A stretch of 64,000 bases of DNA from Vairimorpha necatrix (GCA_036630325.1 CP142737.1:186001-250000); one strand, 5' to 3'. Counted from the first letter of the stretch, positions 7,356 to 51,881 are shown. Numbers and translations: made by a program. Notes: generated from the sequence alone by a model not told the origin.

Positions 7356-8482
7356 AAAAGACCCATTTTAAAATTTTTATATCTTATAAAGTTATCATTT
7401 GTATATAGTAATAAGAATTGTATGTCTAATAGGGACATATTAAAACCATATATACATGCAATATATTAGTAAGAATTTTGTCTTTTGTTTGTATACGTCA
7501 TTTTTCACTTTAAAAACGATTACAACTATCTAAAATTTTTTATTTACTTATGTGGTTCGGAGTTAATGACTCTATAAAATTTAATCAAGATCTATTAAAT
7601 AGCCTCTGTAAAGGCTATACATAATTGCCCTCAGTCTACTTATTTAGTATTTGAAGACTGCAGACATTAAATAGTTATACAGCTTTAATGTTTATTGTTA
7701 CAGCCCCGCGGTTTAAATACTATAATACAGATTATATTTAACCATAATTTTTTATAAATTAACGCTATGTTTATTGATACATAACTACTGTAACTCAATG
7801 TATGTCTATTTAATTTGTTCTCTATTTCAAGGTCGTTTTTCATTTTTTTTTTGTTCCGTAATGCAAAAGTGTTTTGATCTTAGATTATGTCAAGAAAAAT
7901 ATATTTCAAACCATATTGTCTAATTTCATACATACCTATTATTTATTCCAATATCATTATGGTAAGTTTTATTGCATTTCTGCTTAAAAAAGACAAGGAA
8001 TACTTATATTAAATTATTCGTTTGTAATGTTTTTCGTTTTTAATTTATAACAATATGTAGTTTATAGATATTTTATGTCTATACTTCTTTTTTAAAAATT
8101 AACAAAATCTTCTAGATTTATATTGTATACATAGGCAATATGTAGTTACAAAAGTGGATAAAATATGAGCCGATACATAGTAATAATATAATTGTTTTCC
8201 TACTAGAACTTTTGGCGTAAAAGACAACATGAAATATTTGACTGCAATAATTGCCCAAATTCCGTATATGTTCTATAATCATTGACGTTTTCTTCATTAT
8301 TGTTAATTATTTAAATAAACTTTCGATATTTTCTGCAGTTAAATGCCAATAAAAGATAAACAAAAAACATTTTACAACTTATTATTTTCTTAATAACTTA
8401 ATTTACAAATTTTTTTTAACATGACAATAAAAAAGTTTTAAATAAAAATAAATTCATTAAATGACAAAGATTAGTTTGATTA

Positions 8483-8709
8483 TGTGGACTGATGGTTTCC
8501 CATCAGTCCGAGAAGAATGTTTTAAACTAATGTTTTTATTATTCTTCATACCCTTCTGGGTATGATTTTCTTTTATATTTATAGGCGGGAAAAATATTAT
8601 ACATTTTCCCTCCATAAACATAGTTGGGAGAAGGAAGAGAATACTTATAGAATCGTATTCTCTGAGCTCCAGGGCAATCTTAGGACCACTGGAGATCTGT
8701 CACTTGACA
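8483..8709 (-). repeat. 3' LTR of element 1
   Basis: Direct repeat of 10681-10907, adjacent to the PPT. Confidence 0.95.
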
Positions 8710-8731
8710 CTCCCCCCTTCTTTAAAGCCTC

Positions 8732-10747
8732 CTAGGTTCCCATTTGACGACACATCTTAAAGTACTTGCAGTAAATAGTGACTGCGTCCTTATTTAGGTT
8801 ATATGAATTATAGGCTCGCTTTATTTTGGCTACAGGGGTAATATATGACTTTCCCCTTTTATCAATCACTTTCTTCTTGAGGTTTATCGGCGGGTTTCGC
8901 CTTTGTATTGTGTTTTGTAGTTTATGAACACCTAATTTCTCATTTTTTATAACTATTCCTGTTTCCTCTCCTGGTTTAATCATCGTGTAAATGATATGTG
9001 TGTAGTGAGGCACTTCTAAACCTTCGTCGTAATTTTTACGCCATCCATTTATCATAAAATTAAAATTGAATGGTATATTTCTAAGCCCAGGGGGTACACT
9101 ACGCCCGTGAACATTTTTTATTAGTCCGTTATATGGCGACTGTTCTCTGTATTTCTCCCAGGTACTTATCTGACGATGCCTTAAATTCAAGCCCCATCTT
9201 ATACATTCAGGTGGATCATGTAATTCTTCAATGTAAGGAGTTGGGTAACCAACTTGTTTTTTAATTATGTAAAGTTTTCCCGGGTTCACATATATTCCTT
9301 TGTCCCTGAAAAATCCTTTGTCTAAAGCAATCGGGATAGTACCCGTCGAACAAGTTTCTCCAGTATGGGTTTCTTTCACCAGCTCTACGGGCTTGACTCT
9401 TATCGCTTCATTTTGACTTATTAGTCTTCTATGTTGAATGTTCTTTAATGCTGTAAGATCCTTTGGCACTTTCAAATCTATGCTACGATGTACACTTGAG
9501 CTTTGGTCTTTAATATGGAATGTTATAGAAGGTTTTATATCAAGTTTATTACTTTGTTCTTTTTCTTCTTGAACTAAATTCTCTCCGCCCATTTCTGTTA
9601 TATACGTGTCTGGTTTTTTCACCATAGTTGTACAGACAGATTTCTTTGTTCTGTCATATTCCATTTTATCGAGACTTTTTAGTAGATTTAGTTTCTTGGT
9701 ATCTTGTATGCCAATGATGAAGTTTTCCGGTAATTTCTCTTTTACATGAGCCTCGATCTTTAATTTTTTCTTGATCTTTGGCTTTTTGATAAAAACTTGT
9801 GTTTTCCCTTCTGCTTCAACCTGGTCTCCTTTTCTATCTACCTTAAGCGTATCTATTATTGGTTTTAATTCCAATTTCTGAATCATTGTTTTACTTTTAA
9901 GATTCACTCGAGATCCGGTATCATTAAGAGCGGATATTTGTGTTGTTCCCGAATATAAATTTATCCTCGGGCGGATATCTTGTAATTGAGTAGTATTTTT
10001 TTCTTTCCCCAACTTTAAAAGCTTGGCAGAATATACTTGTTCTGCCTTTTGACCAATGAGTTTATTATTTTTCCTTTCTCGTTTAGTGGCTTCATATGTT
10101 GGTTTCCTACTAAGTGTTTTCTTTTTGTTTAAATAGTTATTTATAAAAGTTTGTTTGTTCTCAACTAATTCCAGCAATTCCAACCAATCTTTCGTTTCTT
10201 CAATAGACTCCTTCAACCTATCAGGGGAGTTCTTTCCTATAGAAATCTTTGATCTGGCAAAATATTCAGGGTTTCCTTTTGCACATCTTTTGAGGTCGTA
10301 AGCGTAACTTAAAATGTCGCCTTCTTTTGGACCCTCCACGTATAGATGTATGAACCTATCAGTTATATCTTCTGCTAGTTTTTCTTTTAAATACTTTTTT
10401 TTAAACTGGGTTTTGAATGAATCATAGTCTGTAATTTCATCACCCTCGAACGCTCTGAACCATGTTAACGCCTTGCCTTTAAGTTTAGATTTGGCAATAT
10501 CTAGCGTTTTCTCTTGCGTATACACGTCCTCAATTTCGCGGAACTGAGTTAAAAAATCTTCGGCTTGTTTTGGATTTTCGCCGTTAAATTCTGTCCACCT
10601 CTTGCTCAGACATATTTTCTTCATGTGAGTGATAAGACTATTTAGGTGATCGTTCAAATCCTCGTCACCGTTACCACCATTGTGGACTGATGGTTTCCCA
10701 TCAGTCCGAGAAGAATGTTTTAAACTAATGTTTTTATTATTCTTCAT
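8732..10747 (-). CDS. Gag (retrotransposon capsid) plus protease-like and degenerate RT-like segments
   Basis: N-terminus aligns by eye with Gag of 46702..50538 (LKGKALTWFRA vs LKGKAELWFRA; SAKLLK; RPR). ALNDTGS is protease-like. No YxDD, RNase H or integrase motifs. The ORF is open from 10819, but ATG 10747 follows CCC/GGG and is conserved in the solo LTR. Confidence 0.8.
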   Translation of the reverse strand: MKNNKNISLKHSSRTDGKPSVHNGGNGDEDLNDHLNSLITHMKKICLSKRWTEFNGENPKQAEDFLTQFREIEDVYTQEKTLDIAKSKLKGKALTWFRAFEGDEITDYDSFKTQFKKKYLKEKLAEDITDRFIHLYVEGPKEGDILSYAYDLKRCAKGNPEYFARSKISIGKNSPDRLKESIEETKDWLELLELVENKQTFINNYLNKKKTLSRKPTYEATKRERKNNKLIGQKAEQVYSAKLLKLGKEKNTTQLQDIRPRINLYSGTTQISALNDTGSRVNLKSKTMIQKLELKPIIDTLKVDRKGDQVEAEGKTQVFIKKPKIKKKLKIEAHVKEKLPENFIIGIQDTKKLNLLKSLDKMEYDRTKKSVCTTMVKKPDTYITEMGGENLVQEEKEQSNKLDIKPSITFHIKDQSSSVHRSIDLKVPKDLTALKNIQHRRLISQNEAIRVKPVELVKETHTGETCSTGTIPIALDKGFFRDKGIYVNPGKLYIIKKQVGYPTPYIEELHDPPECIRWGLNLRHRQISTWEKYREQSPYNGLIKNVHGRSVPPGLRNIPFNFNFMINGWRKNYDEGLEVPHYTHIIYTMIKPGEETGIVIKNEKLGVHKLQNTIQRRNPPINLKKKVIDKRGKSYITPVAKIKRAYNSYNLNKDAVTIYCKYFKMCRQMGT

Positions 10748-10907
10748 ACCCTTCTGGGTATGATTTTCTTTTATATTTATAGGCGGGAAAAATATTATAC
10801 ATTTTCCCTCCATAAACATAGTTGGGAGAAGGAAGAGAATACTTATAGAATCGTATTCTCTGAGCTCCAGGGCAATCTTAGGACCACTGGAGATCTGTCA
10901 CTTGACA
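10681..10907 (-). repeat. 5' LTR of element 1
   Basis: Direct repeat of 8483-8709, followed on the minus strand by a TGG-starting PBS. Confidence 0.95.
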
Positions 10908-11105
10908 GATTACATTCAAAAAAACTAACAGAATGGCCCGCGCTCAAACAAGTTATTGTAGGATACGAACAAAAATGATTATAGTTTTATATGATGAATA
11001 ATCAATGATATTAAATTACTATGGAAATATATAAAGTTTAGGGTAGAACTTTATTTTGTCTCATAAACTTTATCATTTATCTAGAAAAAAAATATTTTAA
11101 TTTTT

Positions 11106-12301
11106 GGCTCTACTTCATTTTCTTGCCTCCCTAATAAAACATCAATAAAAATATACAAAATCTCGTTATTTTACGAAACTAAACATTTTTTCGATGGGTC
11201 AAGAAAACGAAGTTAAAATATTTTTTGACGACTTGAGAATTTTTTTTTGTTTTTTCAGATTCAACATTAAGGGGTTATAAAAAAATTAATTTTTTAACCC
11301 CTTAATGTTGAATTTGAAGAAGACATCTCGTAAAATGAATATCTATGAAGATGTGTGCCGTAGAAACAATGAAGCAGCAATTTATTTTATGACAATGGTC
11401 ATAAAACGATCGATTGCTTGCAGACATTGTTCGACATTCGAACGAATTGTTCTTATAAACATTGGTGATTGTTTCGGACACACTGACGGTAAAGCTTATC
11501 GTTGCGTTAATATAAAATGTAGATTGAAGAGAGTACTTAAAAATGGTACTAAGTTAAAGGTATAAGCGTTCCATTTCACAAAATCCTCAGAGCATTCTAT
11601 TATTATGTATATATTATATCCCTTACCAAGCAATAGATCTTTGCAAAATATGTGAGAAGTCATGTACCAAAATCAATGATACAGTGATGGAAGTCGTTGC
11701 TTCCAAAGGAGATGATAGCCACCAAATTGGAAGTCCATCTGTTTGTGTAAAATTTGATGAAACTGCCATATGTAACGAGGTCATTGTATCCAATCCTTCT
11801 TTAACTTTAAATTCTATGCCTGGAATTCAATAGATTTTTGGCGGCACTGTAGAAGGTGATTTTAGAGACTTCGTTTTTTAAAGGAACCTAATCGCAAATC
11901 AACTACTAATGAAGATTTTTTTAGACGCGGAGTAAAGATTGGCTCCATGATTATTACTGATGGTTCCCCTTATAACTTCCAGCCTCTAGAAATTTTGAAA
12001 GCGAACATTTTATAGTATATCACTCGCTTGGCTTAATAAACGCGGATGGAGATCACACAAATCATATAAAATTTGTGGTCCCATTTGAAAAACGAATATA
12101 GATCGAGAAGTGGACTTAATCGGTTTATGATTAAATCATTTTTAAAAGAATTTTCATGGAGAAAAGAAATATCAATCATTTTAATATTGATGATCATAAG
12201 CTCTCATGCATTAAAATTATAGAACTTTGTAGGTTGGATTGAATAATAAATTTCTTCTAAATATTTGTTTTCTAAGGAGGGCAAGAAAATTAAGTAGCGC
12301 C
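11106..12301 (+). mobile_element. Merlin (IS1595/ISXO2-like) DNA transposon, decayed
   Basis: Imperfect 27-bp TIRs (GGCTCTACTTCATTTTCTTGCCTCCCT vs revcomp GGCGCTACTTAATTTTCTTGCCCTCCT). N-terminal CxxC zinc-ribbon ORF 11305-11565. Disrupted motifs VKFDETA, IFGGTVEG, IITDG, HTNHI. Confidence 0.8.
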
Positions 12302-14507
12302 AAAAACTCCATATACTATGCGTTTACTTTGTATTAAATATGATGTATCCATTGCAATCGTCAATTTCTCCATCAAACTATGTTAATTTACATACATGTG
12401 GTTTACATCTAGTTTTAAACGTGCCTTAAGATTGAACATTGAGGTTTAATGTTATTTAGTTATGCATTAAGAAAATTTTTATCAGCATTAATCAGTCTTA
12501 TGTTTGCACTCCAATCTGAAATCTTTGGAGCTTAATTAGAGTCAAGAACAAATAGAAAATATAGTCTTGTAAACTCAAACTATACATTCGGCAACAATCT
12601 GACAAAAAATCGTGGCAAAATAGTCAATATGACTAATATAATTCAGTATAGCTAAACTATCAGCACGAGAAGGAATAGTTGGTGTTTTTATAGCAAGCTT
12701 TGACAGTTTTGGAACGATGATGTCTCTTACACATAAATTTAGATTATTGAGGATAAATATAACAATTTTGCATCGTTCTAAAGCTCTTAAATTCATAATG
12801 ATTGACGGAGCAGTTGTTGAAGAAAATTATTTTTATTTTTACAATAGCAAGTTTAATAATGACGTTTAGCAGAATAATTTCATGATCAGATGGATCGAGG
12901 CTTTGAAGATGGTTTAAACACTAGCCAAAGTTTATTTTTATCTTTTGTTTGCGATAAAAACCATCATAGGCCAAAACCGTCTCATATAATGTTAGTTTGT
13001 TTCGGGAATTGTAAAAAGACGAGAAAAATAATTTTCATTTTCTTCGGTCTGACCTATTTATGTTTGTTAATTTTGAAGACAAAAATTGATTTAGATATAA
13101 AAAACGAATTGTAAAATTAAGCACACCGAAACTGGATTCTAGAAACTGAATTTGATCTCGAGTATCGAGAAATTTTTAATTGTATATTTCAATTTAATTG
13201 TAACTATTGCAGTATTAATATGCCTGATCATACTTAAACTTCATAAAACAACGTGTCTTAGAATTATAGCGAAATTAATATCATTTAATTATTCGTCTTT
13301 AAATCAAAAAGTTTCACTTTCTCAATATCAACATTTTCGCATTGTCGGTCCAAACAAACTAAATAGTTTTTGCTTGATAAGATTTTGGATATTATTTCTT
13401 GTATAGAATTAAACATACAAACAAGTCAATTTAAAAGATCCCCAAATATAGTGCAACTATGGGGTTGATAGAATGGGCGATGTGTGTATATGGCCGTTGG
13501 TGGACATTAGCTATCCCCATGTAAACCTAAAACTAATCGAATTCTGTATTAATAAATATATTCATAAATGATTTTCACTACCAAAAACATTTGCATGCTC
13601 CCCATCTGCATTCATAGCTATGAAAATTTGTCGCACCGGCACAGATTTTTATCCCACCTTGTACATAGAGGACAATATAAAACCTTCAATCGATGTCATA
13701 TCGACTTTTGATACGGCTTTGGCATATATAGTTTAACAAAAGGTTTACAGCTCTAAGAATTTACTTTAAAGATTTGTGTTGTCTATATTAAGATCGGGCT
13801 TCAAGCATGGGTAATACTATTATCATTCTGTCATGAACGTTTTAACGAATATCGACAATAAATGTCTTATTCTATTTAAAATTATTGTAAAGTTGTTATA
13901 GACGTAAATATTTAAGGTTTTTTTGATTTGATTAGAGGATTTATTTTGAATTTCTGTTTTTTCTTGTTTTATTGTTAAAAAGTTATCTAATTTTAATTAA
14001 TTTAGGACATATACAACACATCATATAATTTAATGCTCATTAAAATTTTTTATAAATATCATTTTTAATTTATTTTTCATAAATAACAAATTACTACTAA
14101 TAAAAGTTAATCTTAATAAGATAAAATTTTAAAGATTCGTGTAAGTATATGGGCTCTTTTTCGTGATAAATATTTTATTATAATATCGTTTGATTTTTAA
14201 ATAAGGATTATCATTCTGAGATATTATAATCAAAAAATACTAAACTGTAAGCTTTTTTGATATCAAAAATCAGATATGGGGCGATTTGTTCTTTTAATTA
14301 GATAATTTTTCTACTTACATAAACTTATAGAATATGCGGTATAAATTGAAATTTAATTATAAATAAACATTTATATAGTATTCTTACCCAATGATTTTAA
14401 TTAAAACATATATTATTGTCATATATAAATTTTATCATCCTATTAAATTTTATAAAAATTTATTGCTTTGGCTATAAATTACATTTGAAAATTTGATAAC
14501 CCTATAA

Positions 14508-15757: not shown

Positions 15758-15977
15758 TGTCAGGGGAAAGATCTTTGATGGCTCTAAGATTGCCGGAGAT
15801 CGTAGAATACTATTATATAAGTATTTTCTCCTTCTATCCATAATGTTTTAGGAGGGAAAATGTACAAGATTTTCCATCGACAAACATGAATGAAACTCAT
15901 GCCCAGAAGGGTATGAAGGATATTTAAAATTAAGTTTAAAACATGCTTTCAGGACTGACGGGAACAATCAGTCCATA
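15758..15977 (+). mobile_element. Solo LTR related to the element 1 LTR
   Basis: Colinear with the reverse complement of 8483-8709 (CTAAGATTGCC, GGAGGGAAAATGTA, CCCAGAAGGGTATGAAG, AGTTTAAAACAT, GGACTGA..TCAGTCCA). Flanked by TSD CATCT (15753-15757, 15978-15982). Confidence 0.88.
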
Positions 15978-22142: not shown

Positions 22143-25100
22143 TGTATTTATTTATCATAATTGGGGATCAAAAATATAAGAATATATAACATCCCCCCTC
22201 CAAGACGGTTAGTCTCCTACATCACCATTAACCCCAAGCAGATTTTTCAAGTCATAATGTCTCTTTTTAACATATCGCCCATTAGATAGCTTCACAACAT
22301 ACGAGTCCCCAGGGCATATCACCATTATAATACCTTCGTCTAAAAACCTTTCCTTTTCATATTTATTACATCCTTTGATGTTTTCTTTCTTAGCTATCCT
22401 TACTCGTTGTTACTCAATAAACCGCTCTCTTTTTCTTCTAACAAATCTTTTACTGTAGTCTCCTTCTGGTCCATTTAATATCATCACCTTCCCCGTATTG
22501 TCTTTTACCGCTTCATTATGAGTACTTCTTATACCTTCATGGTAACTATTATTATAAATTTTAAAGCTTTCCATCACTATGTCTTCAAAACTCGCCGTCT
22601 CTTTACTCATTTTCAATATTAGTTCTCTAAGCGTTCCTATAACTCTTTCAACTCTACCATTGCTTCTATGAGACTCGACACTTACCTTATTATGGGTAAT
22701 ATCCAATTTTCTACACAAATCCTTAAAGTCAACATTATCAAATTCCTTCCCATATCCGTTATTATTTCCTTCGGCCTCCTGCCATTTCTACATAAGTTCT
22801 CAATAAACTGGGCCACAGAGGATCTCTTCTTATCGTATAATACACATCCCCACGCTATCCTCGTATGGTAATCTATCGCAACTAATACATATTTGCCCTC
22901 ATCTCTAAAATCAATTAAATCTAACGCTACTTTTTCTAAATACCTGCTTGTAGCAACAAAATCACATCCTCCAGACTTTTTCCTATTGTAAATTTGACAC
23001 TCCTCGCATATTTTTATCATTTTCACTATATCTTCTTTTATTCCTGGCCAATAATAATAAAACTTCATGGCATAATACATGCTTCCTAGTCCTCTGTTTC
23101 CATGCTCTTCATGATAACGAATCATAAGCTCATCTCTTTCTTTTATTTTAGGAATCAATGCTTTCCTCCCCGAATCAAAATTCCAGTATTCTTTACCGTC
23201 TATTGTCTCGACGTGCTTCAACCATTTACCTTCAATTTGACGCTCACTTCTTTTTTTTATCATTTCTTTTCTTGGATCAACCTCCATGTGTATCCTACTC
23301 AAAGCATCCGCCACGACCATATGTTCTGGTTTCCTGTAATCTATTTCAAAGTCAAATTCTTGGATCTTTTCAATCCATCGATTAATTCTATTATTATTAA
23401 AACACGGCTTTCTTCTTATTTCCGCCAATGCTTTGTGATCCGTTTCTACTTAAATTTTCGTCCTCTTAACTCATACTCAAATTTCTTTATTCCCCAATAT
23501 ATGGCATACATTTCCTTTTCACTTATACCATATCTAGTTTCTGTCGGGGTGAATTTCTTCAATGCCCATTGTACTGCCATCCACTCTTCTTTATCATTCT
23601 TCTGCATGAGTACTACGCCCATTCCTATATTGCTCGCGTCAGTTCTTAATAAAAATCCCTTGTCATAGTTTACAATTTTCAATTTACTTATACTTCTCAA
23701 CGCTTCCTTCAAATTTTCGAACTCTTTATTAAGGTCATCAGTCCAATTCAGCACTTTACTTTTACCTTTCAAGCTTTCAGTCATATATAATGTCTTCTAC
23801 GCATAATTCTTAATAAATCCTCGAAACCATCCACTCAGTCCTAAAAATCTTCTTATGTCAGACACATTCTGCGGCGTTGGAAACTCTAGTGCTTCGTTTT
23901 TCTTGATTTCAGACGGCATCATATCATCTCCGTTTATATAACTCCCAATAACTTTACTTCCTTTTGGCAATACTGAATTTTCTTTGAATTTATCCGCATA
24001 ATATTCCGTTCTAACAATTTCATCGCTTCTACAAATAATTTATCATGTTCTTTTCTAGTCTTCGCATGAATCACTATATCATCCATGTATACTTCTATTT
24101 TACCACCCAAATGTTTTTCATAAATCTTATTCATAATTCTCTGCATGATCTGAGGCGAGTTTTTAAACTCCATGACCATACTATTCCACTCATATACTAT
24201 CTTATCATATTCAAATGCAGTCTTATGCTTGTCTTGCTCTTCTATTTCAATTCCAATAAAAGCCTCCTTAAGGTCTATAACACTGAAAAATTTCGATCCT
24301 TGCGTGTTCCAAATGATATCCCTAATGTTCACTAATTCATAAGGGTCTTTCTCCACTAAATCATTTAATGCCATGAGATTGCTAACCAGTCTTATACTTC
24401 CATCTGGCTTAACTGAAGCTTTAATCGGATTTCTCCATTCCGACGTCGATCTTCTTATGACATTCCTTGTCTCTAACCTCTGAATATATTTTCTCAGCTC
24501 TTCTTTATGCGCTTGTGGCACCTGCTGACCTTTCCTTACAACTTTCTTACCTTCTTCAGTTCTGATTCTGCATTTTTCAATTTTACAATATCTTATTTTC
24601 TCTTCTTCGTTGTCTATAACGTTCCTAAACCTCTTTCTCATGTCTTCTAATGTTAGACCGTTCTTTTCTACCTCATCATAACATCTTTTATTTCATGTCT
24701 TCCATTCTTGTTTCTTTTGTCTTTTAGCATCCCATGTGTTCCTATAAGTCCTTTCGCCACAGCTACTGCTACCTTCTTCTTTAATACTCTCACATTCATC
24801 TTTATTCTTAACATTCTTATATCTATAATAACACATCTGACTCTTATGTCCCATTCTTGAACAATTATAACATCTCATTGTTCTTCTCTTCTCAAATATT
24901 CTTTCCTCTCTACTAATATTTCTAATCTCCTCTGCCACCATCTTTGTGACCTCCTCAATCATCCGTAATCTCATATCCTTTTCCTCCTGTACTTTAACCA
25001 ATTCCTCTAATTTGGTTTCCAAAACTTTCCAATGATCTCCAATCTTAATATTCTTAACCATAAATTCTTTCAACTCATCAGTTCCAAGATCATAAATCTC

Positions 25101-25283
25101 CTTCTTTACATTTTTCTCAAAATCATAATCAGACAATACTAATCCATAAACAATCCTCTTAAACTCTTCTAATAACCTTCTGGCCTCTTGACCACAGCCA
25201 ACACTTGTTAACTCACGATTCGGTATCGCCCCCATGTATTTATTTATCATAATTGCGGATCAAAAATATAAGAATATATAACA
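22143..25283 (-). mobile_element. Ty3/gypsy LTR retrotransposon with 49-bp LTRs (element 2), decayed
   Basis: 49-bp TG...CA repeats at 22143-22191 and 25235-25283 (1 mismatch). TSD TTAAG (22138-22142, 25284-25288). PPT GGAGGGGGGA (22192-22201, minus). PBS TGGGGGCGATACCG (25221-25234, minus). Confidence 0.92.
22209..25250 (-). pseudogene. gag-pol of element 2 (Gag-CCHC, RT, RNase H, integrase), broken by stops and frameshifts
   Basis: CYNCSRMGHKSQMC zinc knuckle, RT FSVIDLKEAF/YMDD, RNase H RTDASN, integrase zinc finger (HEEHG..CEEC), LDLID, ITDMG, SNGRVERVI. Gypsy order RT-RH-INT. Confidence 0.9.
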
Positions 25284-25482
25284 TTAAGTATCATTTCAAT
25301 TAGAATAAAATATGTCAAGTACCTTTTAAGGAAATATTATTATAAATAAATGGCTATTAGATAAACCACACAATAAAAGGTTTTATTTTGTTACTTATTT
25401 ATGTCTTAAAGATATTAATTATTTTATATTGACACATGGTTATTACAATTTAACATTTATATTGCATCTCTATATAATAGTA

Positions 25483-27043
25483 CCGGGTTTTCCGGGTTAA
25501 GAGATCCACCCCAAAAGTCGAATTTTGCGACTTTTTAAAAAGAAATTATTATACTAGTGTAAGCGATCCACCCCCAGCCAAATGGTAAAAAAATTATATT
25601 AGAAAAAATGAACCCTTTATTGTAATAAATATTTAAATTTCTATAAAATCTTCAAACAAATTTTCACAGTCTAGGCCTTCGTCTTCAATTTCAGCACAAT
25701 TAAGAACATCTTGAAGTTTATTGTTTAAATTAAAAGTATTGTTTTCATGAAAAATTGAATCTGTTCCACACAATCTAAAAGCCTTAGAAGCCATTTCGGG
25801 AGTTGTTTTTTTTAATGCATCCGCTATTGAATTCAAAATATATTTTAAGCTCGGTCTACGCCTATAACCTTTATTTGTATATTCCTTTGGCCCGTTTGCA
25901 AGCCATTCCTGCCATTTTCTTTTTAATTCGGCCTTAAATGAAGAATTTATCAAAACATCCAATGGTTGTAAATAAGACGTAGTTTGGGGTGGGGGGAATT
26001 AAAACGGTTTCAATGTTATTATTAGCAAAACTTTCCATAACTTTTTCAGTATAGTGAGATTTATAGGTGTCAGGAATAAGAAGTTTTTTTTTTCTATTTT
26101 CAAATGGCCCATATTTGTTTAAACATGCACGAATCCATAATAACATCAGATTTTGATCCATGTTCCCTGATTCAGATGTAACTACAAAAAGATTATTTGG
26201 CACAAAGCATTTTGGCGGGTTTTTAAGGCGTTTTAAAATGGCCATTCCCCTTAAAACAGTACCTTCTGAAGAAATAGTAATAACGACGGAAATTTTAGTC
26301 TTAAGATTTCCAGTTGTATATGCCTCAGTGTTTTTTTCGCCGGTAAATGATAATGTCCGCGATTGCATCATATTATTGTAAACAGGAGTTTCATCCATAT
26401 TATACACCACTGTTTGGCTGTCCATACAGTTAAATTTATGATTAAAGGCTTCAAAATAATTCAACACGGTTTCTTTAATCTTCTGAGGCCTTCTGTTGTC
26501 TTCCTGTCCAAAAGATGTTATTTTTCTAAATGAAAAATGATTTCTTCTTTTGAACCCCATCAACCAACTCATACTTGCCTTAAAATCTGTAATGGACAAC
26601 TTCTCTGCTATTTCAAAAGCCTTATCTCTAATATTATAAGTTGAGATAATTCGCTTCTTTTCACCTCGCTCTACCTTCACCCAATCCACCAACATTTTTT
26701 CAAGAGGAGGCCATTTGGCAGAAGTACCGGCACGCATTCTTTTAATATTTTTAATGTTGCTTTGGCCTAACATTTTAACTTCGGCCTTTTTTCCAATCAC
26801 GAAGCATTTTCCTAGTAATCTGCAACTCTAGAGCAGTCATACTTAAATTTCCATTGTTTTCCCGCAATCTTTGTAATCCTGCTAATTTTTCTTTTAGAGT
26901 GTAAGATTTCATTTTCATGGAGGTAAATTTAGAAAAAAAATTTAAAAGATATTTCAAATATTTTATATCCTTATAAGAGATCATCCCAAATAAGAGACCA
27001 CGGATCTCTTATATGGGTGGATCTCTTAACCCGGAAACCCCGG
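25483..27043 (-). mobile_element. pogo/Tigger-family (Tc1/mariner superfamily) DNA transposon
   Basis: 29-bp TIRs CCGGGTTTTCCGGGTTAAGAGATCCACCC / GGGTGGATCTCTTAACCCGGAAACCCCGG (1 mismatch), with TA on both flanks (25481-82, 27044-45). Confidence 0.92.
25633..26984 (-). pseudogene. pogo-type transposase (CENP-B-like HTH plus DDE_1), two frameshifts
   Basis: SYTLKEKL..HTH, FKASMSWLMGFKRR, NMDETP, PDTYKSH, (L)QPLDV across a frameshift, KAFRLCG. Confidence 0.88.
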
Positions 27044-27094
27044 TAAAAAAATTCAAAAAAGAAAAAAAAACATCAAACGTTAAAATATTTAATG

Positions 27095-46106: not shown

Positions 46107-46441
46107 GGGCGAATTTTTAATGGTTAAAAATTCCCCTTTCTTAAAAAAATGTTGTCTAACGAAGAAATTGAAAAACTTTACGAAAAAATAAAAGAAAAAA
46201 GATTCAAAATAAATTGCATTCAGTGTGGCTGGGAAACACGTAAAGAAGATAAAACACATGATTATCTAAGATGTAAATGGAAAAAGTGTCGTATGAAATT
46301 TTCAATCTGGAAAAATACATTATTTTCGGCTACAAAAATAAACCATCTATTAATATTAAAAATAATGAATTTATATACTTTGGGGATGATTAAAGAGCAT
46401 ATTGCTAGAGTTTTGAACTGTAGTGAAAAAAATGTCGAGAG
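46107..46441 (+). mobile_element. Truncated Merlin element (zinc-ribbon/HTH N-terminus) interrupted by element 3
   Basis: CIQC..RCKWKKCRMKFSIWKNTLF..IARVLNCS resembles the 33237 relic. The frame resumes after the TSD (ESVIRRLNKT*). No DDE part found downstream. Confidence 0.65.
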
Positions 46442-46701
46442 TGTCAGGCTGCAGACCTGCACTGACGATACGGCTTCCAGTTAAACAATAATAATTGGAC
46501 CTGTCAAACATCTCGAAGTAGTGTAAACAAACATTGAACATTTGACATGCACAAACTAAAAGTAGGAAAAGTGCATGCCACATGAAGTACTACTACTTTA
46601 GTAGAACTTTGGTTTCTTGTTTGTTTGTTTACATCTCAAAGAGTTTGACAGTTAATCTAATTAACTATTTAAACGGAATTTACCCCTAACACACAATTCC
46701 G

Positions 46702-49700
46702 ATGAGCAACAAAAAAGATAACAACTCAAATAAATATGTTAACTTAGACTCACCCTCTTCTACTTCGGATCAGGCTACATACCGGATCACAAATGGCGAC
46801 AACGAAGAGATTTGTAAAGAAGAAAATATGGATTCAATACTCTTAAAATTAAAAAATTTAATGTCAATGGAAAAGTGGATAACTTTTCAAGGACTAAAAA
46901 CTGAAGATCCAAAGACATTTTTAGGGCAATTCTTAGAATATGAGAAGCAATGGCCTCAGAGCACCCTATATGCAAAAGCGACTTCAATGCTTAAGGGAAA
47001 AGCCGAACTATGGTTTAGAGCGAACGAAGAATCGATGCTCACATATAAGCAATTTGTTGAAAATTTTAAACGTAATTTTATTAAAAGAGAATCAGAAATA
47101 GATAAAACTGAAAAATTCTGGGACCTAATCAGGGAAGGCCCAATTCATCCAGATATGCTGTCATACAGTTACAGCCTACATATATACGCTGGACAATCAG
47201 AATCCTTATTTAAAAGAAGTAAAGAGAAACTCAGAGATTTATTAGATGACGAATACCTTCGCGATGGTATAGAAAGATGTCATGATTGGAACGAGTTAGA
47301 GGAATACATAAAGTTAAAAGAAGAAAGATTAAACAAAAAAATTCGAATCTTCTATAAAAAACAATATAAAAATAAAAACGAATATAAAAATAAAAATGAA
47401 TATAAAAATAAAAATGAATATAAAAGTAGTGAAAGAAAAATAGACTACAGGGGTAACGAGACAAGAGTCAGCCCCGATTCAAAGCCTTATAAAAAAGAAT
47501 TATTTAAAAAGAATGAGCAAAAGAAAGCTCTAATTATCTCGGCAAAACTACTAAAAGTAAATGATCGAAGACCAAGAGTAAAATTAAATTTTGAAGATCA
47601 AGTTATAGTAGCATTATTGGACTCCGGGGCTAACGCATCAGTTATACGTAGAAAAGAAGCGGAAGAGCTGAGTGATGAAATTCTAAAGGAAAAAGGAGAA
47701 ATAAAAGGTTTTAATGGAACAAGCAGAGTGATAGGCTCATGTAAACTTAAAATAAAACCAAATAATCGCTCAGGAGCGGAAACAATTACCTTATTAGTGG
47801 TGAATGATATGGAGGAAGCAATAATTTTTGGAATAGAAGAAATCGAAAAATTAAATATGATAGACTATATTCCAATTAATCAAAAGAAAGTCGGTAAAAA
47901 AAGATCAATACCTAAGAAAAAAAGGATTGTATTAAACGCGGAAGTTACTACAAAGAAGGAAGATAGTAACACGGATTTGAATGAATTAATTAAGAACATC
48001 AAATGTGAAAACACACTGTTAAGAAAGAAGTATACACACACTCTTGAAAAATATACTAAACTATTCTCTGATGATAATTCTTTAAATAATATCGAGATCG
48101 AACACGCGATCGAATTAATAAATGGAGCTACTATGTCTCCATGCCCAAAGTATAAAAGATCCCCGGAAGAACACAAGATCATCCGAGAAGAAGTTAAGAA
48201 ATTCATTGAAAAGGGCATAATTGAGGAGAGTGAAAGTCAATATATATCACCAGTGGTACTAGTAAAAAAAAAGGATGGAGGTATTAGGTTTTGTATAGAC
48301 TTCCGACGATTGAATAAAATAACAATACCATATGAATATCCGATACCAAGGATTGATGAGACCCTGGATCAACTACAAGGGGCTAAAATATTCAGCACAA
48401 TGGACGTTGAATCGGCTTATAACCAGATATCTGTAAGGCAAGAAGATAGATTTAAGACTGCTTTCTACACACGAGAAGGAATCTATCAATGGAGAAAAAT
48501 GCCTTTCGGGTTAATTAATGCACCCTTTACATTTCAAAAGATCATGAATAAATACTTTGCGAAATATATGCACAAATTTGTAACAATATACTTAGATGAT
48601 ATTTTAGTATATTCAAACGATCATGATAGCCATCTACAACATTTAGAGACTATTCTGAGTATAATTAAGAAGGTAGGGCTGAAACTAAACAAGAAAAAAT
48701 GTCAATTTGTACAGGAAAGTGTGGAATTTCTTGGATTTAGTGTGTGCAACGGAGAGATTTCAATACCATTGCAGCAAAAGATGCGTTCAATCAATTGGCC
48801 CGAACCGAAGACAAAAAGAGATGTCAGGGCATTCAATGGATATTCTTCATTTTTTAGCAAGTTTATTAATAATTACGCAGATAAAATGAATCCATTATAC
48901 GATACGATTAAGGGAGCTAAAAATTCAAAACTGAAAATGACAGAAGAAGCTTTGCAAGCATTTAATAATATGAAAAAAGAAATCGCCAATGCATCTGGCT
49001 TGAAACTACCAGATTTTAGAAAGAAATTTTACTTATATACAGATGCATCGAATTTGGCATTGGGAGCAGTATTACAACAAGAAGATGAACATGGAGAATT
49101 GAGACCCATTATATGCATCTCAAGAACTTTGAGCCCAGCAGAAATTAACTACACGGTAACAGAAAAGGAGTGCCTAGGTGTAGTATGGGGAGTTAAAAAA
49201 CTACGAGTTTATCTGACACAACAGTTCATAATAAGGACAGATCATCAAGCATTAAAATGGCTACTAAATCTAAAAGAGACTACAGGTAGACTAATGAGAT
49301 GGATATTGACCTTACAAGAGTATAAATATATAATTGAATACATACCTGGAGAAGAAAATGTAATGGCCGATGCACTCAGTAGAATTGTGATGATAGCATC
49401 AAATACTCAAGAAGAGGAAAAGCTATCCGCCGACGAGAAGGTTCGAGTAATACTAAAAAGTCATCACGAGTGCGGACATGGCGGTGTTGATGCAACATAC
49501 GTACTCACATTGAGAGAAAAAAAATGGAAAGGCATGTATAAGGACGTGATCGAAACGATAAGAAGATGTAACATATGTAATCGACATTCACGTGGGGCCA
49601 CTAATTTACAGAAAATCAGACTTCCACTGATGAATCCCCTGGATAGAATAGGGATAGACCTAGTAGGTCCTCTACCGAAAAGTTATAATGGAAATAGATA

Positions 49701-50538
49701 CGTAGTAATCGCAACGGATTATGTAACTAGATGGTGCGAAGCAGAAGCGATAAAATCTAAATCTACAAATGTAATTGCTTTATTTATACTAAAGAAGATA
49801 ATTTGCCAACATGGACCCCCTAAGGAAATATTGTCTGATCAAGGGACGGAATTCACGAGTAGATTAATAAAAACTATATGTGGCATGATGAATTGTAAGA
49901 AATCGTTTACTTCAAGTTACAACCCGAAATGTAATGGGTTGGCAGAGCGCACTAATCAAACCTTGATAGGTAAACTAGCTAAATTAGTTGATGGTAGGTG
50001 GAAACAGTGGGATGAATACCTCCCCTATGCGATATTTGCTTACCGAATATCTCCAAGAAAACAATCTAAAAGGTCACCGTATGAACTTTTATATGGGAGA
50101 TTACCAAATTCGTTTTTAGAGGCTAAGATAGATGATAACATCCTTGAAGATAATGGCCTTATAGTCGAGAGATTAAACGAATTTCGGAAACTAATGATAA
50201 ATGAAGAAAAAGAAATACGTGCAAAAGAAATAACAAAGGTTAAAAAAGGTAGAAGCCCTGACGATATTGAAGAAAATGATTACGTAAGAAGGAAAAAACT
50301 GTTAACTGAAAAAGAGAATAAGTTAGATGCAAACTTTGATGGAATCTATAAAGTCATAAAAAAAGGGAAGAATGGAAACTATGAAATTGAAGGTTTAAAT
50401 GGAATGCGATACTCAGTGAATCGAAAAGACTTAATGAAAATTGAAGAGTCAGATCCAATAGATTGGATTCTTTCGAAGGAGGGGAGAGTGTCAGGCTGCA
50501 GACCTGCACTGACGATACGGCTTCCAGTTAAACAATAA
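46702..50538 (+). CDS. Gag-Pol polyprotein (Gag, protease, RT, RNase H, integrase)
   Basis: LLDSGA protease, RFCIDFRRLN, MPFGL, YLDD, TDASN RNase H, HHECGH..CNIC, IDLVGP, SDQGTEF, NGLAERTN. Single uninterrupted frame. Confidence 0.97.
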   Translation: MSNKKDNNSNKYVNLDSPSSTSDQATYRITNGDNEEICKEENMDSILLKLKNLMSMEKWITFQGLKTEDPKTFLGQFLEYEKQWPQSTLYAKATSMLKGKAELWFRANEESMLTYKQFVENFKRNFIKRESEIDKTEKFWDLIREGPIHPDMLSYSYSLHIYAGQSESLFKRSKEKLRDLLDDEYLRDGIERCHDWNELEEYIKLKEERLNKKIRIFYKKQYKNKNEYKNKNEYKNKNEYKSSERKIDYRGNETRVSPDSKPYKKELFKKNEQKKALIISAKLLKVNDRRPRVKLNFEDQVIVALLDSGANASVIRRKEAEELSDEILKEKGEIKGFNGTSRVIGSCKLKIKPNNRSGAETITLLVVNDMEEAIIFGIEEIEKLNMIDYIPINQKKVGKKRSIPKKKRIVLNAEVTTKKEDSNTDLNELIKNIKCENTLLRKKYTHTLEKYTKLFSDDNSLNNIEIEHAIELINGATMSPCPKYKRSPEEHKIIREEVKKFIEKGIIEESESQYISPVVLVKKKDGGIRFCIDFRRLNKITIPYEYPIPRIDETLDQLQGAKIFSTMDVESAYNQISVRQEDRFKTAFYTREGIYQWRKMPFGLINAPFTFQKIMNKYFAKYMHKFVTIYLDDILVYSNDHDSHLQHLETILSIIKKVGLKLNKKKCQFVQESVEFLGFSVCNGEISIPLQQKMRSINWPEPKTKRDVRAFNGYSSFFSKFINNYADKMNPLYDTIKGAKNSKLKMTEEALQAFNNMKKEIANASGLKLPDFRKKFYLYTDASNLALGAVLQQEDEHGELRPIICISRTLSPAEINYTVTEKECLGVVWGVKKLRVYLTQQFIIRTDHQALKWLLNLKETTGRLMRWILTLQEYKYIIEYIPGEENVMADALSRIVMIASNTQEEEKLSADEKVRVILKSHHECGHGGVDATYVLTLREKKWKGMYKDVIETIRRCNICNRHSRGATNLQKIRLPLMNPLDRIGIDLVGPLPKSYNGNRYVVIATDYVTRWCEAEAIKSKSTNVIALFILKKIICQHGPPKEILSDQGTEFTSRLIKTICGMMNCKKSFTSSYNPKCNGLAERTNQTLIGKLAKLVDGRWKQWDEYLPYAIFAYRISPRKQSKRSPYELLYGRLPNSFLEAKIDDNILEDNGLIVERLNEFRKLMINEEKEIRAKEITKVKKGRSPDDIEENDYVRRKKLLTEKENKLDANFDGIYKVIKKGKNGNYEIEGLNGMRYSVNRKDLMKIEESDPIDWILSKEGRVSGCRPALTIRLPVKQ
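47364..47424 (+). repeat. 18-bp tandem repeat in gag (YKNKNE)
   Basis: ATATAAAAATAAAAA(C/T)GA x3.5. Confidence 0.85.
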
Positions 50539-51881
50539 TAATTGGACCTGTCAAACATCTCGAAGTAGTGTAAACAAACATTGAACATTTGACATGCACA
50601 AACTAAAAGTAGGAAAAGTGCATGCCACATGAAGTACTACTACTTTAGTAGAACTTTGGTTTCTTGTTTGTTTGTTTATATCTCAAAGAGTTTGACAGTT
50701 AATCTAATTAACTATTTAAACGGAATTTACCCCTAACACACAATTCCGATGAGCAACAAAAAAGATAACAACTCAAATAAATATGTTAACTTAGACTCAC
50801 CCTCTTCTACTTCGGATCAGGCTACATGCCGGATCACAGAGAGTGTAATAAGGCGACTCAATAAAACATAAGAAAAAATAAATAATTTAAAGTAAAATGA
50901 AACGTGTAAATAGTTAGACATTACTTGTCCATTATGTGTATCAACGTGCACAACTTTGATACTTTTTACATAACACTTATAGTCCATGAGATTCATCAAA
51001 TGACTTATTTTCTGGGGATGTTTGAATTTGAGAGTCGTTTAAATTTTGGCAATCAAAATTCATGTGATTTATTATTACGTCATTACGCGGGGGATTGAAT
51101 AAGCACTGAGAAAATTGAAGGGCAATTTAACACAATCTCATCTTGCCATAAATTAGGATGCACAAATTAATCAAGTCCATGCGACGAGAACCGTTGTATT
51201 TAAGCGAAAAAGATAAACGGGTATTCTTGAAGTTGATTTATGAAACTTGTGTGGAGAGCAACCTCCTGGGTTTTCAAAAAGTCGTAAATTAGTGCCACTC
51301 TAGTAATTGCAGTAATTCTATGAGAAAAGGCCCTGGCTTTTATTTTTTAGACGGGCTTCTTCGAGATAAATAGACCAAGTAAAGAAAAGCTTTCTTGGCC
51401 TAATTGATTGGGATTCTGTAACACGGTGGACGAAATTAGTGTGAGACTACGTATAAATAAGCCCATAAAATTAAATATGTAGGTAAAGATTATAGTGCCT
51501 ATATTTGTATTGTATAATAAAGTCTCTCTTTCAGACTCTATTATCATGCTTAATAATCATATTGGCTATAACTTTTTTAACAAGCCTATGGTAATTGTTC
51601 TTTTGAGCAATGTCAAATGAATACGGCGGAGCTTGCTGCACTCAAAACTTTTTAAAGTAGTAGAATAAATAATATTCGCACTTGTTTGAACTTCTGTACA
51701 ACCTAATGAAGGGTTCTTCTTGTCCTTTAAAGTAAATTCATTCTTACACTTTTTTTTATGTTTTTTAATTTTTTAAGGTTTATATACTTTTAATTAGTTT
51801 GTTTCTTTGAACAAACAAACTGTTTTATTCATGCATAAAAACTATAAAAAGACACAATTTGCATAAAATATTGATTTTTTA

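What the first reader, a model, noticed from the sequence alone, without database searches (positions are those of the whole stretch)
8483..10907. Young non-autonomous element that keeps a long open Gag-protease-'ghost RT' ORF
Seen: identical LTRs and a perfect TSD indicate a recent insertion. One stop-free ORF of ~670-695 aa fills the element up to the PPT. Gag is recognisable and NDTGS is protease-like. The RT region survives only as echoes (YPTPYIEEL, PPGLRNIPFNF vs YPIPRIDET, PFGLINAPFTF in element 3), with no YxDD, RNase H or integrase. Inference: heavy amino-acid decay with no stops in AT-rich DNA suggests selection for translation itself. Possible reasons are cis-preferential packaging, escape from mRNA decay, or a restriction-like Gag. 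It resembles TR-GAG-type parasites that borrow RT and IN from a helper.
Basis: partly seen in the sequence, partly recalled or inferred. Interest (0 to 1): 0.7.

Follow-up and report, generated by a model that had tools for sequence, protein, structure and literature searches.

The report
Parasitic retrotransposon keeps meaningless open frame
A short jumping gene in a microsporidian parasite has lost the enzymes it needs to copy itself and borrows them from full-length relatives, yet the ruined enzyme region, whose amino acids now change at random, has stayed free of stop codons, which suggests that being translated from end to end, not the protein made, is what keeps such elements alive.

Summary
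Confirmed and extended. The genome holds 13 family members in two subfamilies 81% alike (10 with an open ORF) and 4.0-kb single-ORF relatives sharing LTR, PBS and PPT; element 3 is not the helper. Between subfamilies the 312 codons after the protease have dN/dS 1.02 (95% CI 0.7-1.5; helpers 0.02-0.09), yet 0 stops against 13.6 expected (P about 1e-6) and only codon-sized indels. An unrelated short family repeats this (0 stops vs 8.5), and 11 of 12 readable large length changes are in frame. Selection therefore acts on the frame. The likeliest cause is decay of RNAs with early stops (UPF1 present, UPF2 not found); co-translational packaging is the main rival; neither was tested. It works like TR-GAG/Gag-Pro elements, and like frame-keeping defective viral RNAs. 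The scan's index showed no earlier report of it.

The parts
10908..10912 (.). Target-site duplication GATTA, copy beside the 5' LTR
10681..10907 (-). 5' LTR, 227 nt, TG...CA; holds the start codon and the first 22 codons of the ORF
10684..10707 (-). 10-bp hairpin with a 4-nt loop at the inner end of the LTR (also 8486-8509); stem kept with paired changes in the helper-type LTRs
   Evidence: I4; folds of 7 family members; function inferred
10666..10679 (-). Primer-binding site, 14 nt complementary to the 3' end of this genome's tRNA-Leu(UAA) with CCA added; read as protein
   Evidence: 11 of 11 gene-encoded nt match, the only exact match among 50 distinct tRNA sequences; the 3 CCA nt read from the sequence
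8732..10747 (-). Single ORF, 671 aa plus TAG
10148..10624 (-). Gag capsid-like domain (aa 42-200); conserved against helper-type elements (dN 0.16-0.17, dN/dS 0.10)
9980..10147 (-). Basic Gag C-terminal region (aa 201-256); no zinc knuckle family hit
9677..9979 (-). Aspartic protease region (aa 257-357); DTG at 9922-9914 and IIG kept, glycine-rich flap and the residue before DTG changed in this subfamily; dN/dS 0.37 between subfamilies
9464..9676 (-). Protease-RT linker (aa 358-428)
9056..9463 (-). Ghost RT, N-terminal half up to motif B (aa 429-564); first catalytic Asp replaced, YxDD and RNase H deleted; dN/dS 1.19 between subfamilies
   Evidence: RT-like features also
8735..9055 (-). Ghost integrase C-terminus (aa 565-671), joined in frame to the RT remnant, with a second in-frame deletion inside; zinc finger and catalytic core deleted; dN/dS 1.76 (not different from 1)
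8732..8734 (-). The only fixed stop of the family: TAG in place of the helpers' Trp codon, in frame, 8 codons before the 3' LTR and 29 codons before the helpers' stop
8710..8723 (-). Polypurine tract, as in the helper-type elements
8483..8709 (-). 3' LTR, identical to the 5' LTR
8478..8482 (.). Target-site duplication GATTA, copy beside the 3' LTR

Best explanation
A non-autonomous Ty3/Gypsy element that arose long ago from a single-ORF Gag-PR-RT-RH-IN element by two in-frame deletions. It still makes a conserved Gag, is primed by tRNA-Leu and is copied and integrated by the RT and integrase of 4.0-kb relatives with the same LTR, PBS and PPT. The 300-odd codons behind the protease code for nothing in particular; they stay open because an RNA of this family must be translated to within a short distance of its 3' end to be replicated. 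Most likely an early stop leaves a long untranslated tail and the RNA is destroyed by a UPF1-dependent premature-stop decay before it is packaged: the parent has one ORF running from LTR to LTR and so never needed a guard against such decay. Shown: ancestry, deletions, loss of catalytic residues, recent mobility, neutral amino-acid change, lack of stops and frameshifts, recurrence in a second family (about 0.9 that selection is on the frame). Inferred: trans-complementation, expression, and RNA decay as the cause.
For: A vs B after the protease: 312 codons, dN 0.44, dS 0.43, dN/dS 1.02, CI 0.7-1.5; amino-acid identity and BLOSUM score equal the neutral expectation; no hydropathy trend; same regions between helpers 0.02-0.09. 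0 stops vs 13.6 expected (P0 7e-7; 10.5 and 2e-5 for the 242 RT+IN codons); the other five frames of the same DNA hold 9-27 stops. Only two 3-nt gaps in the ORF, 1- and 5-nt gaps in the LTR upstream of the ATG. The one fixed stop lies in the last 29 helper codons, and even the last 106 codons hold none (about 4.6 expected, my proportional estimate), which fits a distance threshold better than a gradual benefit. Second family L074 vs L129: 234 ghost codons, dN 0.33, 0 stops vs 8.5, no internal indel; its protease was removed by an in-frame 327-nt deletion. 11 of 12 readable large length changes in frame, against 39-45% for microhomologies. An A-run in the ghost RT slipped in 3 of the 7 B-type sequences compared with L007, each a broken single copy. 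A full UPF1 (864-codon frame, zinc and helicase domains) is in the genome.
Against: No expression, RNA-stability or packaging data exist here. UPF2 was not found (an insensitive search), UPF3 was not searched, and a published survey lists UPF2 and UPF3 as not found in the microsporidia whose rows I saw (PMC5709506 supplement), so canonical NMD is doubtful. In the second family the ghost has dN/dS 0.39-0.57, below 1 (p 0.001-0.03), so some amino-acid constraint exists there. In yeast, mini-Ty1 and mini-Ty3 without functional gene products move in trans (PMC4974528), and wheat non-autonomous Angela elements thrive with many stops (PMC9744471): the rule is not general. Gag between A and B is nearly identical (dS 0.065, dN/dS 0.68, not significant), so its constraint rests on the helper comparisons and the second family.
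Confidence: 0.52

Rival explanations
1. Co-translational capture in cis: nascent Gag binds the RNA that encodes it while the ribosome is still translating; the long tail keeps Gag tethered to its own RNA, so that RNA wins entry into particles shared with the helper.
For: Explains both the conserved Gag (dN/dS about 0.1 against helpers; 0.13-0.14 in the second family) and a sequence-blind open tail; needs no UPF2/UPF3. Human L1 proteins act in cis this way (passage in PMC3945221). The A/B/A mosaic L006 points to co-packaging of two subfamilies.
Against: Late stops should cost little, yet none is fixed in the last 106 codons except the terminal one. Ty1 proteins show no cis preference (PMC3945221).
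Confidence: 0.22
2. The tail is needed as protein but in a sequence-tolerant way (a basic, disordered RNA-binding or spacer region in a Gag that has no zinc knuckle).
For: Tails are lysine/arginine-rich and net positive; dN/dS 0.39-0.57 in the second family.
Against: Charge and hydropathy are close to what base composition alone gives, with no significant direction of change; substitutions are not conservative; the tails of A/B, L043 and the second family come from different pieces of pol; every part of a 312-codon tail would have to matter.
Confidence: 0.14
3. The tail or Gag is diversifying under conflict (with the helper or host silencing), or serves the host as a restriction factor.
For: Point estimates above 1 for the RT+IN remnant (1.4, CI 0.9-2.25); Argonaute is present.
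Against: No estimate differs significantly from 1; copies are dispersed, young and mobile with different target sites, not a fixed host locus.
Confidence: 0.08
4. No selection: mutation bias, in-frame microhomology or assembly habits keep the frame open.
For: Microhomologies are in frame 39-45% of the time, above one third; some 1-nt homopolymer deletions in other copies may be assembly errors.
Against: The stop expectation uses the element's own substitution matrix, and stops come and go freely in the other five frames; young copies gain stops and frameshifts readily; contigs of a public run match the ghost region with 0-3 differences.
Confidence: 0.04

Closest known systems
Microsporidian single-polyprotein Ty3/Gypsy elements (Parisot et al. 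2014, PMC4202319; passages read)
   Same: Parent type: one Gag-PR-RT-RH-IN ORF, TG...CA LTRs, 5-bp TSD; named profile hits include Anncaliia, Pancytospora and Enterospora proteins.
   Different: This element lacks RT and integrase activity. The words 'non-autonomous' and 'nonautonomous' do not occur in that paper's main text.
TR-GAG elements of plants (passages in PMC8704663, and PMC13570524; the original description is recalled, not read)
   Same: Short, two LTRs, a single Gag-bearing ORF, moved by an autonomous relative.
   Different: Here the ORF runs on for about 470 codons past the capsid domain through neutrally drifting pol remnants to the PPT; host is not a plant.
Wheat semi-autonomous RLG_Sabrina_SA (Gag-Pro) and non-autonomous RLC_Angela (PMC9744471, passages); einkorn RLG_Quinta (Gag plus DUF1; PMC11302176, passages)
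   Same: Long-lived co-evolution with an autonomous partner, shared LTR ends and PBS, Gag retained. Quinta's Gag-plus-unknown-domain ORF is the nearest layout.
   Different: Angela's dead coding region carries many stops and frameshifts, the opposite of this case; the passages seen give no test of frame selection and no origin for DUF1.
Defective interfering RNAs of coronaviruses and arteriviruses (de Groot 1992; van der Most 1995; Molenkamp 2000: titles seen in the reference lists of PMC8255065 and PMC4395149; texts not held)
   Same: [quoted passage not shown]
   Different: Those are RNA-virus replicons tested in culture; this is an integrated retrotransposon, and the evidence is evolutionary over about 0.44 substitutions per site.

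Membership tests
Ty3/Gypsy LTR retrotransposon (microsporidian single-ORF type) | Direct LTRs with TG...CA ends and a short target-site duplication | tested here: met
Ty3/Gypsy LTR retrotransposon (microsporidian single-ORF type) | tRNA primer-binding site and polypurine tract | tested here: met
   tRNA-Leu(UAA) match; PPT
Ty3/Gypsy LTR retrotransposon (microsporidian single-ORF type) | Domain order Gag-PR-RT-RH-IN in the parent | tested here: met
   L031 Pfam scan; remnants in the same order
Autonomous Ty3/Gypsy element | RT catalytic motifs, RNase H, integrase zinc finger and DDE core | tested here: not met
   deleted or replaced
Non-autonomous LTR retrotransposon | Several dispersed copies with their own target-site duplications although enzymes are missing | tested here: met
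   10 of 11 uninterrupted copies examined have a matching 5-bp TSD, all different
Non-autonomous LTR retrotransposon | An autonomous partner sharing LTR ends, PBS and PPT | tested here: met
   7 intact 4.0-kb elements, LTRs 83-86% identical to this copy's; actual complementation not testable
TR-GAG | Single ORF encoding Gag between two LTRs | tested here: met
TR-GAG | No RT, RNase H or integrase coding sequence | tested here: not met
   in-frame RT and integrase remnants make up 243 of 671 codons
Gag-Pro semi-autonomous element (Sabrina_SA type) | Intact protease behind Gag | tested here: inconclusive
   DTG kept and dN/dS 0.37, but flap changed and no Pfam protease hit in this copy; subfamily B passes
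Defective interfering RNA | Helper-dependent deletion derivative that keeps an open frame | tested here: met
Defective interfering RNA | Translation in cis shown by experiment to be needed; interference with the helper | not testable with these tools
   only the evolutionary signature was measured
Defective interfering RNA | Derived from an RNA-virus replicon | tested here: not met
   an integrated LTR element; works like, is not, a DI RNA

The most novel reading that the evidence does not exclude
In this microsporidian no LTR-element RNA can be replicated unless ribosomes read it almost to its 3' end, enforced by a UPF1-only decay pathway or by translation-coupled packaging. Every lasting parasite of these elements therefore carries a long ORF selected for frame alone: natural, replicated 'random-protein' genes, kept open over thousands of copying rounds, that are raw material for new functions, and a read-out of RNA surveillance in a lineage where UPF2 and UPF3 have not been found.
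Probability: 0.45. Interest if true: 0.8.

Novelty: new variant of a known kind. Interest (0 to 1): 0.66.

Why it matters
An open frame is normally read as evidence that the protein matters. Here about 310 codons evolve at dN/dS 1 and still reject stops and frameshifts, in independent lineages of one genome: a clean natural case of selection on translation itself. It carries to retrotransposons a rule known by experiment from defective viral RNAs, contrasts with yeast Ty and wheat elements, makes testable whether microsporidia run premature-stop decay with UPF1 alone, and warns that such ORFs will be annotated as host 'hypothetical proteins'.

Tried and rejected
Homologue search with the 671-aa protein: none at E<=0.001 among 8,000 candidates of 369-1,175 aa; no evidence either way. 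Structure prediction: tail pLDDT 26.6, but the Gag-protease control also gave 33.1, so uninformative; no fold search run. RNA: no RNA holder listed. UPF2 family search rang nowhere, controls included. Element 3 as helper: rejected, its LTR is not a repeat of this LTR and the protein is 25% identical. A frameshift at the ORF end: rejected, the stop is an in-frame TAG. A non-tRNA primer site: a first screen found no match because the tRNA-Leu gene itself ends in CCA and my script did not add the second CCA; corrected. An overlapping or antisense ORF explaining the high second-position change: no other frame of 120 aa or more in the element, stops in all five other frames. Selection towards hydrophilic residues: no significant trend. 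A replicating frameshifted lineage: L012 and L021 share +1 in one A-run but are not sisters (53 differences; L012 is 14 from the intact L008); L118, L120 and L134 have the same flank as the decayed L117, i.e. DNA duplications. A Gag-protease protein with an unassigned tail from another source (P0003): its DNA was not retrieved. Literature: 10 searches listed no paper on frame-only selection in an LTR element; the library lacks most subscription papers, and I read passages, not whole texts.

Full report
Setting. The window is AT-rich with long single-frame eukaryotic genes in a 15-Mb, 12-contig genome; named hits of a Gag-protease profile include microsporidian proteins. I treat the host as a microsporidian.

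The element. LTRs 8483-8709 and 10681-10907 are identical over 227 nt, with GATTA on both sides. The ORF starts at an ATG inside the 5' LTR, shared by all 12 intact relatives used, and ends 22 nt before the 3' LTR: 671 aa. The primer site matches tRNA-Leu(UAA), the only exact match among 50 distinct tRNA sequences from 59 loci fetched around the 63 tRNA matches. A hairpin at the LTR's inner end keeps its stem, with paired changes, in 7 of 7 family members folded.

The family. A search of the genome gave 43 matches, a lower bound. Thirteen are short elements with this layout: subfamily A (L001-L004, L047; 98-100%), subfamily B (L007-L012; 81% to A), the A/B/A mosaic L006 and the decayed L021. 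Ten have one open ORF. Of 11 uninterrupted copies, 10 have a matching 5-bp duplication, each different, and 7 have identical LTRs. Seven intact 4.0-kb elements with a 1,228-1,230-aa Gag-PR-RT-RH-IN ORF share LTR (83-86%), PBS and PPT. The short elements equal these minus two large pieces: from RT motif B to the end of the integrase core, and about 47 codons within the integrase C-terminus; both joins are in frame. A and B share the joins, a 4-codon gap and the terminal TAG, so they decayed from one founder. Synonymous distance to the helpers in Gag (1.6-1.9) is as large as between helper subfamilies (1.0-1.2): the copies are young, the lineage is old. Gag and LTR are far closer between A and B than the rest, which points to recombination.

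Amino acids are free. Pairwise codon models, L001 vs L007: protease dN/dS 0.37 (CI 0.2-0.7), linker 0.32, RT remnant 1.19, integrase remnant 1.76, all 312 codons after the protease 1.02 (CI 0.7-1.5); a second pair and another frequency model agree. Between helpers the same regions give 0.02-0.11. Against helpers, dN is 0.14-0.17 in Gag but 0.73-0.87 in the RT remnant, where helpers differ by 0.04-0.06. Identity and BLOSUM scores equal the neutral expectation; hydropathy shows no significant drift. A language-model search still sees RT features in the tail (best 0.92, 137 shared features: a distant likeness).

The frame is not free. With the pair's own substitution matrix, 13.6 stops are expected after the protease and 10.5 in the RT+IN remnants; none is seen (P0 7e-7 and 2e-5; three pairs agree, but they are not independent). 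The five other frames of the same DNA hold 9-27 stops each. A and B differ by two 3-nt gaps in the ORF, and by 1- and 5-nt gaps upstream of the ATG. By contrast 47 comparisons of young copies with their nearest intact relative gave 20 stops and 44 small frameshifts against 9 in-frame indels (some double-counted, a few upstream of the true start, and 1-nt homopolymer gaps may include assembly errors). In the 21 broken copies there, no disabling change is shared apart from one site hit in opposite directions, but families are small and this test is weak.

It recurs. I fetched 60 further stretches chosen mainly from the 93 Gag hits; 50 showed an LTR pair. An unrelated short family (L074, L129, L116, L126) has a Gag at dN/dS 0.13-0.14 and a tail at 0.39-0.57; L074 vs L129 show 0 stops in 234 tail codons against 8.5 expected and no internal indel. 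L129 has one stop in Gag; L116 and L126 are frameshifted. Large length changes whose frame could be read: two in A/B, two in L043, one each of 327, 882, 309, 861 and 846 nt, a 123-nt duplication and the RT-RH loss of L093 are in frame; the 826-nt gap of L118 against the decayed L117 is not; L123 could not be read and was left out. That is 11 of 12; with 45% expected from microhomology the chance is about 1e-3 (my arithmetic).

Mechanism. Shown: frame-only selection. Inferred: its cause. The single fixed stop sits 29 codons before the helpers' stop and none lies further up, even in the last 106 codons; with about a dozen copies drift is strong, so the cost of an early stop must be high. That fits RNA decay triggered by a long 3' tail better than a gradual tethering benefit. 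UPF1 is present; UPF2 was not found and UPF2/UPF3 are listed as not found in the microsporidian rows I saw of PMC5709506 (supplement; main-text passages), so the pathway would be non-canonical. Co-translational capture by nascent Gag remains open; L1 does it and Ty1 does not (PMC3945221, passages). That single-ORF elements are short of Gag, so that a Gag donor may help its helper, is my inference. A folded or functional tail has no support; the fold predictions were uninformative.

Comparison. It works like TR-GAG, Sabrina_SA and Quinta elements (passages) but is not a TR-GAG by the no-pol criterion. Non-autonomous Angela elements decay with stops and mini-Ty elements need no gene products (PMC4974528, passages), so the open ghost frame is the unusual part. 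The nearest precedent is in defective interfering viral RNAs (titles only; PMC7736815 gave only reference-list hits). Ten literature searches listed no such report for an LTR element. Earlier scan notes: none by sequence, none holding all my words; notes on this genome agree that Gag starts inside the LTR, and those on a palindrome in place of the PBS led me to finish the tRNA check, which shows a normal tRNA site in this family.

Verdict. Real, statistically strong, replicated within the genome; a new variant of non-autonomous LTR element with an untested mechanism. Interest 0.66.

Noticed in passing
window 46437-50783 (+): Element 3: intact single-ORF Ty3/Gypsy element of another family (1,278 aa, all domains), at least 4 more near-full copies at 98-99% and many related solo LTRs, several near contig ends. 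One copy (L121) lacks 861 nt of integrase in frame.
   Followed up: partly
window 22143-25284 (-): A 3.1-kb broken Ty3/Gypsy element with repeats of only about 50 nt (D11), RT and integrase pieces and a weak zinc-knuckle hit; looks like the tiny-LTR family in earlier notes. Such families were not covered by my survey.
   Followed up: no
window 15829-15929 (+): A 78-80% match to part of this family's LTR in opposite orientation (I1 and I6): probably an old solo LTR.
   Followed up: no
window 25449-27077: Tc5/pogo-like transposase ORF (25934-26827) between 63-nt inverted repeats.
   Followed up: no
window 11101-12306: 41-nt inverted repeats around a decayed stretch right beside the element (I1): a likely DNA-transposon remnant.
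   Followed up: no
L038 (G000:C10:657000-664400): A subfamily-B copy interrupted by a 4.0-kb element of its own helper family inserted in opposite orientation.
   Followed up: partly
L047 369-2914 (-): Subfamily-A copy with a 123-nt in-frame duplication over the LTR end and PBS, ORF still open, and non-matching flanks.
   Followed up: partly
L093 428-3422; L088, L090: Gag-protease-integrase elements lacking RT (and RNase H in L090, L093) with one open frame of 865-888 codons; L093 is only about 70% like the nearest full-length element. They could supply integrase in trans.
   Followed up: partly
L043 362-2430 (+): A third short derivative of the same helper family with other breakpoints (keeps an integrase zinc-finger remnant), single copy, 548 codons open to the helpers' stop; a 1-nt gap behind the PBS cuts it from the LTR start codon.
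   Followed up: yes
L178 705-3296; L064 31-2472: UPF1 and Argonaute genes of this genome.
   Followed up: partly
P0003: 536-aa protein from a metagenome contig of 2.7 kb: Gag, protease and about 170 unassigned residues; may be a similar element in another organism.
   Followed up: partly
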